Shown: positions 9,867 to 11,964 of the stretch, piece by piece
How the letters are laid out: each line of letters begins with the position of its first letter
Numbering within the stretch: the stretch's first letter is position 1
DNA from: a virus
DNA length: 64,000 nt
Virus record (IMG/VR): IMGVR_UViG_3300044684_000161
Location: 1-64,000 of that record
Direction: 5' to 3' (one strand)
Program-made: the position numbers and the translations under genes
Notes under the pieces: generated by a model
What the model saw: the letters and a program-made list of their open reading frames with translations, nothing else
The model's database searches: none
What the model was told of the DNA's origin: nothing

Positions 9867-9893
9867 AAAAAAGAAGGCGCCGCGAGGCGCCTT
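9867..9893 (-). terminator. Intrinsic terminator closing the leftward RNA array
   Basis: Minus strand AAGGCGCC-TCGC-GGCGCCTT-CTTTTTT. Confidence 0.8.
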
Positions 9894-9930
9894 TAACTTT
9901 CCACGGGGGCGTGGAGAGGAGACCAATAGA

Positions 9931-10049
9931 GAGGGTGGCCGGTGCTGATCTCCGGCTCAGGGCGTCCGCTTCACGGTTCTAGTTCGTCCGATCCTCAAAG
10001 GCCCACCTTGTGTGTCAGCGTGCGCGCATCAGCCTGCGCATTCACCCTC
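9931..10049 (-). ncRNA. c4: C4-type antisense RNA
   Basis: Minus strand GAGGGTGAATGCGCAGGCTGATGCGC...GCCGGAGATCAGCACCGGCCACCCTC matches the C4 RNA hallmark ends and has a 7-bp closing stem. Confidence 0.8.
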
Positions 10050-10190
10050 ATGCAGGGGCGCTGTCTTTGCCAGTTGGGTAGACCCGGAATCCCCCCAACG
10101 GCGCAGCACTGTTTCGCTTTGGTCATTTGAGATGTACGGTCTCGTCAGATTTCAAGCTATGAGCGCCAGCGTTTTCCGTTCCCCTGCATG
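10049..10190 (-). ncRNA. Structured RNA module of unknown family
   Basis: 10-bp closing stem CATGCAGGGG...CCCCTGCATG. Confidence 0.55.
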
Positions 10191-10317
10191 AAGGTGCTGG
10201 CTCTGCACCAGCTCGCCGGCTTGCGTACCGGGGCTTTCCACGTCGAGGGTTGCCGGCATGGCCGGCCGATCGGAGCGACATGGCCTCAAATATCCAACTG
10301 CCTCGATCACCCTCATG
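10187..10317 (-). ncRNA. Structured RNA module with a T-arm-like 3' hairpin
   Basis: Closing stem CATGAGGGTG...CACCTTCATG (G-U pair only on minus); 3' hairpin GCTGG-TGCAGAG-CCAGC. Confidence 0.6.
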
Positions 10318-10385
10318 GCGGCGCCCTGACGCGGCTCGGGGATAGACAAGTCCCTCCGCACTACTGCGCCAGGCGCGCCTACATG
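10314..10385 (-). ncRNA. Hairpin RNA module
   Basis: CATG..GGCGC.CCTGGCGC pairs with GCGTCAGG.GCGCC..CATG. Confidence 0.45.
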
Positions 10386-10578
10386 AAGGTGCTGGTTACG
10401 GGTTCCAGCGTCCGCCCAATTCTGCGGCCGGTTTCGGGGATCTTCGAGGGTGCCGGGGATGATCCGGCGGCATCGTGACGGGCCGGTACTGTTCGCATTG
10501 ACCCAGTTGGCGTACTCGCGTCGCGTCGTCACGTTGCGCAGCCTGCGCCAGCTACTTTGTTTCGCTCCCCTTCGCGTG
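10382..10578 (-). ncRNA. Structured RNA module, C4-like
   Basis: Contains GCGCAGGCTGCGC and ends GCTGG-AACCCGTAA-CCAGC-ACCTTCATG, the same 3' end as module 10187-10317. Confidence 0.5.
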
Positions 10579-10614
10579 CGCACGCTCCGGCTCGCTACTG
10601 ATTTCGCTTCGCAA

Positions 10615-10733
10615 CCTTCACGACTGCCGACTGCTGCCCGGGAGTCGAACCCGGCGCCCAAGGGCTTCGCTATGGTCGCCCCGATGGTGCAATCGGCATG
10701 CGTGAAGGCCGCTTACGCCGGCCAGTCGGCGGC
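10615..10733 (-). ncRNA. Scaffold-cargo RNA module 1, with a canonical T-arm in the cargo
   Basis: CCTTCACG-CA-TGCCGATTGC...GCAGTCGGCA-GT-CGTGAAGG; CCGGG-TTCGACT-CCCGG at 10638-10654. Confidence 0.7.
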
Positions 10734-10911
10734 ACGCTAATTTTCTCCGCCCGTCATCGCAGTTATCGATTGCGCCTCGTCGGTCGTGGAGGACTCCTCC
10801 TCCCGTTCTCCGATGGTCGAGGGCATCAAATGCGGCTTGCTGGATTACTTACCGGAGCTACGCGGCGATCAACCGCGCGCCTACCACGCCAGCGCCCATC
10901 ATCTGATCGAC

Positions 10912-11033
10912 CCTCACGGCTGCGTTCGATCGACCCCTCGACTCACCGAGGATCCGGGGATGGACTCTCGCCTCGGTGGACCGCTGCATCGAACGCATGC
11001 GTGAGGCGACCGATTACGCCGGTCAGGCGGCGG
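10912..11033 (-). ncRNA. Scaffold-cargo RNA module 2
   Basis: CCTCACG-CA-TGCGTTCGAT...ATCGAACGCA-GC-CGTGAGG. Confidence 0.7.
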
Positions 11034-11154
11034 TTCGTTGTAACGTGAGCCGCGAACTCGTGACACATACGCGGTGCCGCGCGAGAGGATAGCGTCTGGC
11101 TCGAACGCGCTCGCGCGCGGATGGCCGTACTCCCATGCACTTCTGACCACCTTA

Positions 11155-11224
11155 CCCTCACTGCTGGCGGCTGAGATCCGAGCTCCCAACTCTTATAACG
11201 CCTAGCGCAAGCCAGTAGTGAAGG
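11155..11224 (-). ncRNA. Related hairpin module
   Basis: CCTTCACTACTGGC...GCCAGCAGTGAGGG, a 14-bp stem with one mismatch. Confidence 0.5.
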
Positions 11225-11356
11225 TGCGGGGTTTAGCTATCACCCTTCCCGATGGATCAGCCCCGCAAAGCCCCCTCGGTGTAGTCTGTCTTCTGGTCCC
11301 CGCCGCGCGACAGACATTCGCGGCGGATCAACCCCTCGCTCTCACAGTGGTATCCA

Positions 11357-11489
11357 TCACGACTGGCGGCTGGACCGTCGGTGCGTGCCACCGATATTCT
11401 CTCAGCGTCTTAAGACGGCCTTAGTCCTGTCAGCACGTCATCCAATCGCCATGCGTGAAGCGGCTCGTAACGTGAGCCAGTCGTGGCGG
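11357..11489 (-). ncRNA. Scaffold-cargo RNA module 3
   Basis: TCACG-CA-TGGCGATTGGA...TCCAGCCGCCA-GT-CGTGA. Confidence 0.7.
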
Positions 11490-11689
11490 AGGGACCGGGC
11501 ATCGTCGCACTTCCCGACCCCTCCAACGCGTTGCGCCGCGTGGCTATTTTCTAGGCGCTGCTTGAGGCTTACCACAGCCTCACTGATTCCTCGGCGCTTG
11601 AGGGTCATCCTGAGTCCCGACCGGATGACATGCACACGTGAACCAGGGCCTACGCCAATCAAGTTCGCGCGCGGGAAGCAAAATTCTGA

Positions 11690-11863
11690 TTCACGGCTGA
11701 CGGCTCCAAGAGCGGATCGTCTCTCGTCACCTTGTTTAAGCGCACGGGGGTTGTGGCATCCTTAGCAGGCTCCGCCTGTACCATCCTGCCGTGCGCTCCG
11801 CTGGTCTATTTTCGACCAAGCCGTCATGCGTGAAGCGACAGCTTACGGCTGTCAGTCGGCGGC
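11690..11863 (-). ncRNA. Scaffold-cargo RNA module 4
   Basis: TTCACG-CA-TGACGGCT...AGCCGTCA-GC-CGTGAA. Confidence 0.7.
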
Positions 11864-11955
11864 GTTGCAGCCGCGCCACTCGTTCACCCATGAGCTTACG
11901 CTGGGGCCGGGCATCGCACCCGGCGGCGCTCAGGCGTCGCGCTAACGTGAGATGA

Positions 11956-11964
11956 ATCTTATCA
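11956..11964 (-). promoter_or_regulatory. Extended -10 promoter for the RNA array
   Basis: Minus strand TG-A-TAAGAT in an AT-rich tract directly upstream of the first module. Confidence 0.55.

What the first reader, a model, noticed from the sequence alone, without database searches (positions are those of the whole stretch)
9867..11964. A 2.1-kb phage transcription unit made of concatenated structured RNAs
Seen: the region between an extended -10 promoter (TG-A-TAAGAT, 11964-11956, minus) and a clean intrinsic terminator (9893-9867) has no credible protein gene. It holds at least 10 self-closing stem modules, and their G-U pairs mostly work on the minus strand. One module is a C4-type RNA, and several end in a 5-bp T-arm-like hairpin next to the closing stem. 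Established: P1 C4 and P4 CI RNAs are tRNA-like antisense RNAs released by RNase P. Inference: this is a polycistronic small-RNA array processed into many regulators (multi-phage immunity antisense RNAs, antitoxin mimics or anti-defence decoys). It is the best candidate in the window for an undescribed system.
Basis: partly seen in the sequence, partly recalled or inferred. Interest (0 to 1): 0.92.

Follow-up and report, generated by a model that had tools for sequence, protein, structure and literature searches.

The report
Phage operon of scaffolded structured RNAs
A 2.1-kb gene-free stretch of a soil phage is a row of folded RNA modules built on two conserved "frames" that hold different inserts; the same frames recur in many other phages, match no catalogued RNA family, and their job is unknown.

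Summary
Window 9867-11964 (minus strand) has no credible gene, ends in a clean terminator, and is packed with stem-closed modules.

Two covariance models built only from other phages find exactly eight modules here, all on the minus strand:
- Seven "Type I" frames (E 6e-13 to 0.05): a 5' hairpin, an outer stem CYUCAYG/CRUGARGG, a CAU/AGY internal loop, a covarying second stem and variable cargo.
- One "Type II" frame (74 bits): a closing stem, two hairpins whose loops pair with each other, and cargo between them.

Both frames show strong covariation in other phages. They lie beside co-oriented tRNA genes, and some carry tRNA-like cargo. Type II's first hairpin also occurs in 196 cultured phage records, among them HK620 and Stx2 phages. 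No Rfam 15 family matches either frame.

Membership of C4, tRNA and YrlA was tested and not met. The phage has no TROVE (Ro60) match.

Best reading: a polycistronic precursor of small RNAs displayed on tRNA/C4-like processing frames. Transcription, processing and cargo function remain inferred, because no RNA data were available.

This scan earlier noted analogous "handle plus cargo" arrays on other DNA, built on different handles.

The parts
11956..11964 (-). Possible extended -10 element (TGnTAAGAT), with no -35
   Evidence: Letters read. Not listed by the promoter scan. Unverified.
11858..11955 (-). Leader segment with a T-arm-like hairpin CCGGG-UGCGAUG-CCCGG
   Evidence: MFE only. Repeat families D7/D10 link it to the M5 and M2 regions.
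11685..11857 (-). M1, Type I frame with long cargo
   Evidence: R1 hit, 31.2 bits, E 5.2e-06.
11483..11684 (-). Spacer M1-M2, predicted stem-closed folds
   Evidence: MFE only.
11351..11482 (-). M2, Type I frame
   Evidence: R1 hit, 54.1 bits, E 1e-11.
11246..11350 (-). Spacer M2-M3, closed by GAUGGAU/AUCCAUC, which shares bases with the 3' strand of M2
   Evidence: MFE.
11152..11245 (-). M3, short Type I variant (outer stem CCUUCAC/GUGAGGG, loop UA/CA)
   Evidence: R1 hit, 19.1 bits, E 0.0055.
11029..11151 (-). Spacer M3-M4
   Evidence: MFE only.
10908..11028 (-). M4, Type I frame
   Evidence: R1 hit, 42.2 bits, E 9.4e-09.
10728..10907 (-). Spacer M4-M5
   Evidence: MFE only.
10614..10727 (-). 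M5, Type I frame whose cargo ends in a canonical-looking T-arm (GGUUCGACUCC)
   Evidence: R1 hit, 58.9 bits, E 6.4e-13. The YrlA model touches only the T-arm, 9 bits.
10411..10613 (-). Spacer M5-M6, with a weak Type II-like layout
   Evidence: R2 hit at 10446-10587, only 10 bits, E 0.79, so not significant. MFE.
10307..10410 (-). M6, Type I variant (CACCUUCAUG/CAUGAGGGUG). Its cargo is identical over about 60 nt to phage PHB04.
   Evidence: R1 hit, 21.1 bits, E 0.0018. PHB04 homologue with two compensatory changes in the outer stem. The 5' hairpin is conserved in BcepIL02 with a compensatory change.
10216..10306 (-). Spacer M6-M7, closed by GAGGGU/ACCCUC, followed by two hairpins that are conserved in L012, L037 and PHB04
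   Evidence: MFE. Conserved letters seen.
10042..10215 (-). M7, Type I variant with a fully paired 16-bp closing stem
   Evidence: R1 hit, 15.3 bits, E 0.049. Fold.
9931..10049 (-). Closing stem GAGGGUG/CACCCUC shares GAGGG with the 3' strand of M7. Hairpins GCGC-AGGCUGAU-GCGC and GCCGG-AGAUCAGCA-CCGGC have complementary loops.
   Evidence: R2 hit at 9933-10047, 74 bits, E 1.8e-19. Family covariation. PAJU2 homologue.
9867..9893 (-). Intrinsic terminator
   Evidence: 8-bp G+C-rich stem plus T run.

Best explanation
The stretch is an RNA operon read from the minus strand. It holds a chain of independently folding modules in which conserved 'frames' hold variable, structured 'cargo'.

Type I frame (M1-M7): a small 5' hairpin stacked on a 7-10 bp outer stem (CYUCAYG/CRUGARGG), usually a CAU/AGY internal loop, then a covarying stem of about 8 bp. 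This second stem takes the place of a tRNA acceptor stem where the cargo is tRNA-like.

Type II frame (M8): a cloverleaf-like layout with a 5-7 bp closing stem, a 4-bp hairpin and a 5-bp hairpin that abuts the closing strand. Six Watson-Crick pairs between the two loops take the place of the D-loop/T-loop contact, and cargo sits where the anticodon arm would be.

Shown: the structures, their strand, their conservation and covariation in many phages, their association with co-oriented tRNA genes, and the absence of a dedicated neighbouring protein.

Inferred: the primary transcript is cut by host RNA-processing enzymes at the frames (RNase P-like recognition of the acceptor-like stems, or RNase III on the roughly 20-bp interrupted helix). 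This would release stable small RNAs whose cargo domains act in trans on host or rival-phage factors. The strand GAGGG, shared between neighbouring closing stems, would make folding or processing of adjacent units interdependent.

Cargo function is unknown. I rate a decoy or mimic role above an antisense role.
For: Independent models:
- R1 was built from 49 modules of other phages and finds 7 hits in 64 kb, all on the minus strand and all inside the stretch.
- R2 was built from 20 other elements and finds M8 at 74 bits.

Covariation:
- Type I: 92.5% of cells paired against at most 47.1% when partners are slid. 78 double-change cells against 23.9 +/- 4.0 in shuffles (0/500). 5 of 7 pairs of the second stem change on both sides.
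- Type II: 97.1% paired against at most 47.5%. 10 pairs change on both sides against 3.9 +/- 1.0 (0/500). In the loop-loop helix, 3 of 6 pairs change on both sides.

Strand: G-U pairs at several positions, and model hits on one strand only.

RNA-gene context:
- The syntenic gap of phage PHB04 holds 3 tRNAs and a permuted tmRNA next to the M6 homologue.
- In 17 of 55 Type I loci a tRNA/tmRNA gene lies within 2 kb, and it is co-oriented in all 17.
- In 2 loci the cargo itself scores as tRNA, model positions 3-68.

Modularity:
- Cargo differs almost completely between frames.
- Module number varies from 1 (BcepIL02) to 8 here.
- In 17 of 55 Type I loci a Type II element starts inside the last bases of the Type I 3' strand, as M7->M8 does here.

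No partner protein: the most widespread ORF cluster around the modules occurs in only 10 of the 61 sequences clustered (60 fetched loci plus the first 22 kb of this genome).

Placement in other phages fits transcription. Type II lies between pR'/qut and the late terminator in HK620, and downstream of and co-oriented with cI-like repressors in Stx2a_WGPS2 and PAJU2.
Against: - No expression or end-mapping data exist for this phage.
- The promoter is only an extended -10 seen by eye.
- Folding energy of the upstream half is not better than shuffles (z -1.35).
- M3, M6 and M7 score weakly (15-21 bits), and the model E-values are rough.
- The central outer-stem pairs were fixed by the search pattern and say nothing about structure.
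- Part of the closing-stem 'covariation' in A2 reflects two length classes aligned in one register.
- M8 lacks a 3' CCA-like tail. Type I trailers read AGY, not RCCA, and the leader pairs with the trailer, which usually hinders RNase P.
- Only about 6 of the 56 Type I cargos inspected show a T-loop-like hairpin (my reading).
- The interleaved spacers rest on MFE only.
Confidence: 0.55

Rival explanations
1. C4/CI-type antisense immunity RNAs: RNase P releases tRNA-like antisense RNAs whose loops pair with target boxes in a phage operon, in this phage or a rival one.
For: M8 has the same overall layout as the Rfam C4 consensus shown: a closing stem, then a GC-rich hairpin, then a GCCGG...CCGG hairpin. 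HK620 and Stx2a_WGPS2 homologues end in ...AGCCA after the closing stem. PAJU2 and Stx2a_WGPS2 copies lie in the immunity region downstream of cI.
Against: No C4 match at E<=10 in the region or in the whole genome. No C4, c4-a1b1 or isrK match over the Type II element in the 11 loci scanned at gathering score or in HK620 and Stx2a_WGPS2 at E<=1. One contig (L172) carries a true C4 elsewhere as well as a Type II element. The two loops pair with each other and covary. No complementarity to the rest of the genome above shuffles: best 30.2 bits, shuffles 26-34. M8 has no CCA tail.
Confidence: 0.1
2. One long cis-acting structured RNA, for example a 3'UTR or leader that stabilises, terminates or antiterminates the early-left transcript, or a large single ribonucleoprotein scaffold like GOLLD or ROOL. 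It would not be a set of separate small RNAs.
For: Modules are butted together and share strands (GAGGG). There is one terminator and at most one promoter. In HK620 the Type II unit lies inside the pR' leader.
Against: Units occur singly or in any number in other phages. Cargo is unrelated between units. No GOLLD or ROOL match.
Confidence: 0.15
3. Y-RNA-like handles that dock a Ro60-type protein and display tRNA-like cargo, as this scan noted for other phage arrays.
For: The concept is the same (conserved stem handle plus variable, sometimes tRNA-like, cargo in tRNA islands). The 5' strand of the second stem (consensus GGCGAUUG) differs by one letter from the GNCGAAN0-1G motif that Chen et al. 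2014 propose for Rsr binding (passages of PMC4201824).
Against: No TROVE match in the complete phage genome. TROVE is absent from 4 of the 5 host genomes that carry strong Type I hits, and the fifth has only a 26.7-bit partial match. The YrlA model gives 9 bits, on the T-arm only. No protein is shared by the loci. A very diverged Ro60-like protein would escape PF05731.
Confidence: 0.05
4. Elements that act as DNA: single-strand hairpin recombination sites that exchange cassettes, an origin, or simply decayed tRNA genes without function.
For: Conserved inverted flanks around unrelated cargo resemble cassette boundaries. PHB04 has true tRNAs at this position. Some cargos look like degenerate tRNAs.
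Against: Compensatory changes and frequent G-U pairs are strand-specific. The modules are co-oriented with tRNA genes in 17 of 17 cases. Some lie inside known transcription units. Frames are conserved across Burkholderiales, Pseudomonas and enterobacterial phages, which argues for selection, not decay. No recombinase is shared by the loci.
Confidence: 0.1

Closest known systems
C4 antisense RNA of P1/P7 and relatives (Rfam RF01695, clan CL00128); P4 CI RNA
   Same: A phage small RNA closed by a stem made from its two ends, with a GC hairpin followed by a GCCGG...CCGG hairpin (C4 consensus seen). Some Type II homologues lie in immunity regions and end in ...GCCA. That RNase P releases c4/CI is recalled knowledge, not tested here.
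   Different: No match to the C4 model. Type II has variable cargo between the hairpins, a short closing stem, and loops that pair with each other. No a1/b1-type target boxes were found. Type I has no counterpart in C4.
Stable RNAs of unknown function inside phage tRNA gene clusters (T4 species 1/2, T5 RNA1/2). Recalled, and named in earlier notes of this scan.
   Same: Non-tRNA structured RNAs co-transcribed with, or sitting among, phage tRNA genes; some have tRNA-like ends.
   Different: I made no sequence or model comparison. The frames here are shared by many unrelated cargos and occur as an 8-unit array without any tRNA gene in it.
Bacterial and phage Y RNAs (YrlA, Rfam RF02553) with Ro60/Rsr (Chen et al. 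2014, PMC4201824; passages read)
   Same: A modular design of a conserved stem plus a variable, tRNA-mimicking domain.
   Different: In YrlA the closed stem-loop between the D and T arms takes the acceptor position. Here the acceptor-like stem leads into the frame. There is no YrlA model match, no TROVE protein in the phage, and none in 4 of 5 hosts.
tRNA and permuted tmRNA genes of the related phage PHB04
   Same: Same genomic position and strand logic. Some Type I cargos in other phages score as tRNA.
   Different: No tRNA or tmRNA is detected in the stretch. Where cargo is tRNA-like, the acceptor end is sealed by the outer stem and the anticodon loop is degenerate.

Membership tests
C4 antisense RNA (RF01695) | Scores at or above 45 bits against the Rfam covariance model | tested here: not met
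   No match at E<=10 in window 9500-12400 or in the 90-kb genome, 17 candidates scored. A true C4 on L172 scores 68.4 bits and serves as positive control.
C4 antisense RNA (RF01695) | Two loops complementary to target boxes (a1/b1, a2/b2) in the adjacent operon | tested here: not met
   The M8-type loops pair with each other and covary. No complementarity to the rest of the genome above shuffles. No c4-a1b1 match in the region.
C4 antisense RNA (RF01695) | Closing stem with a 3' RCCA-like tail and a 5' end made by RNase P | tested here: inconclusive
   The closing stem is present. M8 is followed by UCUAUU, not CCA. HK620 and Stx2a_WGPS2 homologues have AGCCA. Cleavage is not testable with these tools.
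tRNA (RF00005) | Cloverleaf that scores with the Rfam model or ARAGORN | tested here: not met
   0 tRNA in the window, and none at E<=10 in the stretch. Only homologous frames elsewhere (L012, L057) hold cargo that scores 46 and 33 bits over model positions 3-68.
YrlA / Y RNA with Ro60 | Match to RF02553 (gathering score 69 bits) | tested here: not met
   Best match 9 bits, E 7.2, covering only the M5 T-arm.
YrlA / Y RNA with Ro60 | A TROVE-domain Ro60 encoded nearby or in the host | tested here: not met
   No PF05731 match in the phage. Found in 1 of 5 host genomes, weakly. A diverged Ro60-like fold was not tested.
Type III toxin-antitoxin RNA arrays / CRISPR arrays | Short direct tandem repeats | tested here: not met
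   Tandem Repeats Finder gives 0 rows at score 30. The repeats found are dispersed stem halves.
Type I frame (defined here, model R1) | 5' hairpin, outer stem CYUCAYG/CRUGARGG, internal loop, covarying second stem, cargo | tested here: met
   7 hits with E<0.05 using a model built without window sequence. Covariation.
Type II frame (defined here, model R2) | Closing stem, two hairpins with complementary loops, cargo between them | tested here: met
   M8 scores 74 bits. Covariation includes the loop-loop helix.

The most novel reading that the evidence does not exclude
Phages of Proteobacteria share a general 'RNA display' system. Two conserved frames, one an extended acceptor-like stem and one a cloverleaf whose elbow is replaced by a kissing-loop helix, borrow the host's tRNA-maturation machinery to make stable small RNAs. 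Their interchangeable cargo domains (aptamer-like folds, anticodon-less tRNA mimics) act as decoys against host defence or RNA-surveillance factors. This phage has expanded the system to an eight-or-more-unit operon in place of its relatives' tRNA/tmRNA cluster. The strand shared between neighbouring frames would impose an ordered 5'-to-3' folding or processing cascade.
Probability: 0.25. Interest if true: 0.88.

Novelty: new variant of a known kind. Interest (0 to 1): 0.78.

Why it matters
If these modules are processed RNAs, two large and widespread families of phage non-coding RNA have gone unannotated. Type II's first hairpin (a 35-base query) matches 196 cultured phage records, among them HK620 and Stx2-converting phages, and the full frame was confirmed by model in three of them (HK620, Stx2a_WGPS2, PAJU2).

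A frame-plus-cargo design would give phages a cheap way to evolve and exchange RNA effectors. It would also explain part of the non-coding 'dark matter' in phage tRNA islands, late-leader regions and immunity regions.

The frames are short and well defined. They occur in phages of laboratory hosts, so the question is directly testable.

Tried and rejected
What led nowhere or was rejected:
- Rfam at gathering score on the whole window gave 0 matches. At E<=10 on the stretch it gave only chance-level hits, such as mir-2329 on the 12110-12136 palindrome and Bp1_781 on the terminator.
- A syntenic search with the upstream 109-aa ORF found no relatives in viral contigs.
- My hand-written descriptor for Type I caught only M4 and M5, and caught them on both strands. 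I replaced it with covariance models.
- Short BLAST queries for Type I in cultured phages found nothing or only Bcep22. The known cultured carriers of Type I are therefore the Bcep22-like phages.
- Sequencing runs: no RNA holder was listed. Four DNA runs from soil and rhizosphere hold the stretch, and two of them may be its source. I did not lay any reads.
- ORF clustering around the modules found no shared protein.
- Antisense targets in the phage's own genome: none above shuffles.
- The genome contigs pattern scan gave 93 stretches, of which 80 were listed and fetched. By my own estimate about 67 chance matches are expected in 596 Gb. Only 12 hits in 11 of the 80 loci exceed 50 bits with R1, and I treat the remaining pattern matches as chance.
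- Rows dropped: L055 and L066 were left out of the 51 distinct Type I matches before alignment A1, because their second stem does not pair. A2 uses 17 of the 24 candidates plus HK620, PAJU2 and L051. It leaves out the window's own M8, a truncated L021, a false L057:2813, the atypical L028, and the long L014 and L040.

Papers:
- Searches for the motif letters, 'Proteo-phage-1', tRNA-like decoys and tRNA-like stable RNAs in phage tRNA clusters turned up no description of these frames.
- I read passages of Tree et al. 2014 (PMC4104026), passages of Chen et al. 2014 (PMC4201824), and the abstract plus sections 15 and 17 of the Pas sRNA preprint. None describes them.
- Supplements were closed and might list such motifs. 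Papers outside the held library were not searched.
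Full report
WHAT THE WINDOW IS

The window is the first 64 kb of a 90,102-bp IMG/VR virus record with direct terminal repeats. The DNA is held by soil and rhizosphere metagenome runs. Its nearest cultured relative over this region is Bordetella phage vB_BbrM_PHB04.

Around the stretch, on the minus strand:
- Upstream lie early-type genes: an Ead/Ea22-like protein, an HTH protein and small ORFs.
- Downstream lie two DNA methyltransferases.
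- A large terminase lies at 1421-3481 on the plus strand.

CHECK OF THE OBSERVATION

- Coding: between 9867 and 11964 the longest ORF is 169 aa with a TTG start. It has no Pfam or PHROG match. Its only tblastn match among 50,697 phage records is PHB04, over residues 86-154. That stretch is conserved as DNA (74% nt, 50% aa), the opposite of what a coding region shows.
- Terminator: 9893-9874 plus a T run is confirmed.
- Promoter: the proposed TGATAAGAT is there but has no -35, and the scan does not list it.
- RNA genes: ARAGORN and Rfam find no tRNA, tmRNA or any other family in the window. Nothing meaningful appears at E<=10 in the stretch.
- Repeats: there are no tandem repeats.
- Folding energy: significantly low for 9967-10965 (z -3.84, 0 of 20 shuffles as good). 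Not significant for 10966-11964 (z -1.35, 1 of 20). The case therefore rests on comparison with other phages.

ANATOMY: TYPE I FRAME

By eye and by repeat search, seven units on the minus strand share one plan:
- a small hairpin, often with a C-GUAA-G type loop;
- directly after it, the 5' strand of an outer stem (C)CUUCAYG;
- an internal loop, CAU opposite AGY in M1, M2, M4 and M5;
- a second stem of about 8 bp whose sequence differs between units;
- unrelated cargo of 40-130 nt;
- then the returning strands, ending in CRUGARGG.

I looked for the frame elsewhere with the pattern TCACGCATG-N60-90-AGYCGTGARGG. It matched 57 IMG/VR stretches, giving 60 matches and 51 distinct cores. Two of these (L055, L066) do not pair in the second stem, and I dropped them as chance matches.

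In the remaining 49 (alignment A1):
- 92.5% of cells in the structure I wrote are paired, against 32.9-47.1% when the partners are slid by 1-3 columns.
- 78 cells carry changes on both sides, against 23.9 +/- 4.0 in shuffles (0 of 500 reach it).
- 5 of 7 pairs of the second stem change on both sides, for example GC 25 / CG 20 / AU 3 at one pair.
- Five central outer-stem pairs never vary. The pattern fixed them, so they carry no information.
- Several positions are mostly U-G (30 of 49 and 27 of 49). These would be C-A on the other strand, so the fold belongs to the strand as read.

Model R1 was built from these 49 sequences only. Run without filters over the whole window, it returns seven hits with E<0.05. 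All are on the minus strand and inside the stretch:

| Module | Coordinates | Bits |
|---|---|---|
| M5 | 10614-10727 | 58.9 |
| M2 | 11351-11482 | 54.1 |
| M4 | 10908-11028 | 42.2 |
| M1 | 11685-11857 | 31.2 |
| M6 | 10307-10410 | 21.1 |
| M3 | 11152-11245 | 19.1 |
| M7 | 10042-10215 | 15.3 |

The next hit has E=1. The three weak ones are variants without the CAU/AGY loop.

ANATOMY: TYPE II FRAME

It has homologues in Pseudomonas phages PAJU2, JBD88b and DO4, and in many of the loci fetched for Type I. Its plan:
- a closing stem, GAGGG(UG)/(CA)CCCUC;
- two or three free bases;
- a hairpin GCGC-AGGCUGAU-GCGC;
- variable cargo of about 20-140 nt;
- a hairpin GCCGG-AGAUCAGCR-CCGGC that abuts the closing strand.

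The two loops are complementary (GCUGAU/AUCAGC).

In alignment A2 (20 elements, none from the window):
- 97.1% of cells pair, against 38.5-47.5% when slid.
- 10 pairs change on both sides, against 3.9 +/- 1.0 in shuffles (0 of 500).
- The loop-loop helix is 95% paired, with 3 of its 6 pairs changed on both sides. For example CG 15 / GC 5 in the GGUGAU/AUCACC class, and the GCUCA/UGAGC variant of L020.
- Caveat: two length classes of the closing stem share one register in A2, which inflates the count for that helix.

Model R2 finds M8 at 74 bits (E 1.8e-19). The next window hit scores 16.9 bits, lies on the plus strand inside a gene region and lacks the second hairpin, so I regard it as noise. 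The M5-M6 spacer scores only 10 bits.

The stem lengths are those of a cloverleaf:
- closing stem 5-7 bp (7 in M8);
- linker 3 nt;
- first stem 4 bp with a loop of 8;
- last stem 5 bp with a loop of 9;
- no linker before the 3' strand.

Watson-Crick loop pairing stands where tRNA has its D-loop/T-loop contact. That comparison is my reading, not a tool result.

HOW THE UNITS ARE JOINED

The 3' strand of a Type I outer stem (..GUGAGGG..) also supplies the 5' strand (GAGGG) of the next unit's closing stem. M7->M8 is joined this way.

Across the other loci:
- In 17 of 55 Type I loci an R2 hit begins inside the last bases of the Type I match.
- 24 of the 55 hold a Type II element somewhere in the DNA fetched.

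The six spacers in the window also fold into stem-closed units, several of them closed by GAGGGU/ACCCUC-like strands (M2b: GAUGGAU/AUCCAUC). This rests on MFE only. The exception is the two hairpins before M7, whose letters recur in L012, L037 and PHB04. The two stems that share GAGGG cannot both be fully formed at once. What this means for folding is open.

CONTEXT AND DISTRIBUTION

PHB04:
- At the syntenic place it has a 2.7-kb gap annotated with one tiny CDS.
- cmscan and ARAGORN find three tRNAs and a permuted tmRNA there, followed by the M6 homologue.
- The M6 cargo is identical over about 60 nt, while the outer stem carries two compensatory changes.

Other Type I loci:
- BcepIL02 has one Type I unit. 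Its 5' hairpin differs from M6's by a compensatory pair.
- Of 55 Type I loci, 18 have a tRNA or tmRNA gene outside the module. In 17 it lies within 2 kb, and all 17 are co-oriented with the module.
- In L012 and L057 the cargo itself scores as tRNA over model positions 3-68 (46 and 33 bits). ARAGORN calls both cargos and names the L012 one tRNA-Ile. There, the first two acceptor pairs are the CA/GY mismatches, the outer stem seals the acceptor end, and in L012, read letter by letter, the anticodon arm is degenerate.

Hosts and cultured carriers:
- In bacterial genomes, R1 hits above 50 bits occur in 11 of the 80 pattern-matched loci. These are Paraburkholderia (4), Caballeronia, Ralstonia, Noviherbaspirillum, Ideonella, Aquabacterium, a Pseudomonas MAG and a MAG labelled Mucilaginibacter.
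- Type II is far more widespread.
- A 35-nt query over the first hairpin matches 196 cultured phage records at E<=1: Klebsiella 56, Pseudomonas 49, Escherichia 37, and others.
- In HK620 the element lies between pR'/qut and the late terminator tQ. In Stx2a_WGPS2 and PAJU2 it lies just downstream of, and co-oriented with, the cI-like repressor gene.
- R2 scores the HK620 and Stx2a elements at 75.6 and 60.6 bits.

Annotation:
- No Rfam 15 family covers these elements.
- The HK620 version occurs in 107 of 5,426 complete E. coli genomes. In the 15 rows shown, 14 have nothing annotated under it and one has a hypothetical protein.

Partner protein:
- Clustering all ORFs of 70 aa or more from 60 fetched loci plus the first 22 kb of this genome gives no family in more than 10 of the 61 sequences.
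- The frames therefore have no dedicated neighbouring protein.

TESTS AGAINST KNOWN FAMILIES

C4 (RF01695):
- No match at E<=10 in the stretch or in the complete genome.
- A genuine C4 on contig L172 scores 68.4 bits. It lies 2.4 kb from that contig's Type II element, on the other strand.
- The C4 consensus printed has a 17-bp closing stem, a GC hairpin and a GCCGG...CCGG hairpin. The layout is similar, but the family is not the same.
- M8's loops pair with each other. No complement to the array exists elsewhere in the genome above chance: best 30.2 bits, 20 shuffles give 26.3-34.2.

YrlA / Ro60 (a lead taken from earlier notes of this scan):
- YrlA model: 9 bits, on the M5 T-arm only.
- No TROVE match in the phage.
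- A match in 1 of 5 host genomes, 26.7 bits and partial.
- The second-stem consensus GGCGAUUG is one letter away from the GNCGAAN0-1G motif that Chen et al. 2014 propose for Rsr binding. I regard this as a lead only.

MOST LIKELY MECHANISM

Shown:
- strand-specific, conserved and covarying frames with swappable cargo;
- their placement among, or in place of, phage tRNA genes and inside known transcription units;
- no partner protein.

Inferred:
- One transcript from about 11955 to 9867 is cut at the frames by host enzymes.
- Type II, and the second stem of Type I, offer an acceptor-like helix stacked on a 5-bp hairpin, which is the shape RNase P reads. U at -1 and G at +1 in CAU|G fit that.
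- The roughly 20-bp interrupted helix of Type I also resembles phage RNase III sites.
- The released cargo RNAs would act in trans.

Points against:
- leader-trailer pairing;
- AGY instead of RCCA in the Type I trailers;
- no CCA after M8;
- most cargos are not tRNA-like.

I give 0.9 to 'structured RNA modules on the minus strand', about 0.55 to 'processed into separate small RNAs', and no more than 0.25 to a decoy function.

NOVELTY

Searches of the held literature found no description of either frame (passages and sections read), and neither is in Rfam 15.

The general kind is known: phage tRNA-like or C4-like small RNAs, and stable RNAs in tRNA clusters. Earlier notes of this scan describe analogous handle-plus-cargo arrays on other DNA with different handles. 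A look-up by sequence found this family only in this genome.

I therefore class it as a new variant of a known kind, of high interest because of its breadth.

Noticed in passing
L281 2496-2592 (HK620, record 16094-16190); L282 about 2500-2626 (Stx2a_WGPS2); L003 2496-2615 (PAJU2): The Type II frame sits inside the pR'-qut-tQ late leader of HK620. It also sits just downstream of the cI-like repressor in an Stx2 phage and in PAJU2. It is unannotated in all three and matches no Rfam family. Its first hairpin (35-nt query) matches 196 cultured phage records, and the HK620 version is in 107 of 5,426 E. coli genomes.
   Followed up: partly
L002 2443-3757 (PHB04, record about 45118-46432): The RefSeq record of Bordetella phage PHB04 lists only one 114-nt CDS in a 2.7-kb gap. 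cmscan and ARAGORN find tRNA-Met, tRNA-Asn, tRNA-Pro and a permuted (two-piece) tmRNA with tag ANDDYIRAAA there.
   Followed up: partly
window 9800-9850: Two operator-like palindromes (10-bp arms TAATGTTCGA / TCGAACATTA, 4-bp spacer, and a degenerate second copy) lie directly downstream of the terminator and upstream of small ORFs and the methyltransferase genes. They may be a repressor binding site.
   Followed up: no
window 12110-12136: A perfect 12-bp inverted repeat with a 3-nt loop lies right after the 109-aa ORF, without a U tract. It is a possible RNA stabiliser, processing site or protein site, so transcription of the array by read-through from the early operon cannot be excluded.
   Followed up: no
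genome 65072-65158 (outside the window): The phage's only ARAGORN-detected tRNA is tRNA-Leu(CAA). Its T-arm shares 13 letters with the T-arm-like hairpin of M5.
   Followed up: no
L012 1605-3370: A 27.6-kb viral contig carries nine ARAGORN tRNA calls in a row. One of them is the cargo of a Type I frame; a second, CAUG-type module and an HNH-like ORF lie interleaved with the tRNAs. The two hairpins before the frame match those before M7.
   Followed up: partly
L016, L017, L041, L050, L012, L037 (about 70-80 nt after the Type I 3' strand): A third recurrent unit follows Type I in several phages: ...GUYGGYCGCGCG.GUCGAUAGAC...GCGCCAUGCGGGCCG...CUAGUAGC, closed by GARGG/CYYUC. It was not modelled.
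   Followed up: no
L017 6925-7005; L020 11309-11383: Rfam Proteo-phage-1 (48.1 bits) lies about 200 nt upstream of a Type I module in L017. Burkholderiales-2 (87.9 bits) lies about 630 nt from one in L020, on the other strand. So other orphan phage RNA motifs sit in the same islands.
   Followed up: no
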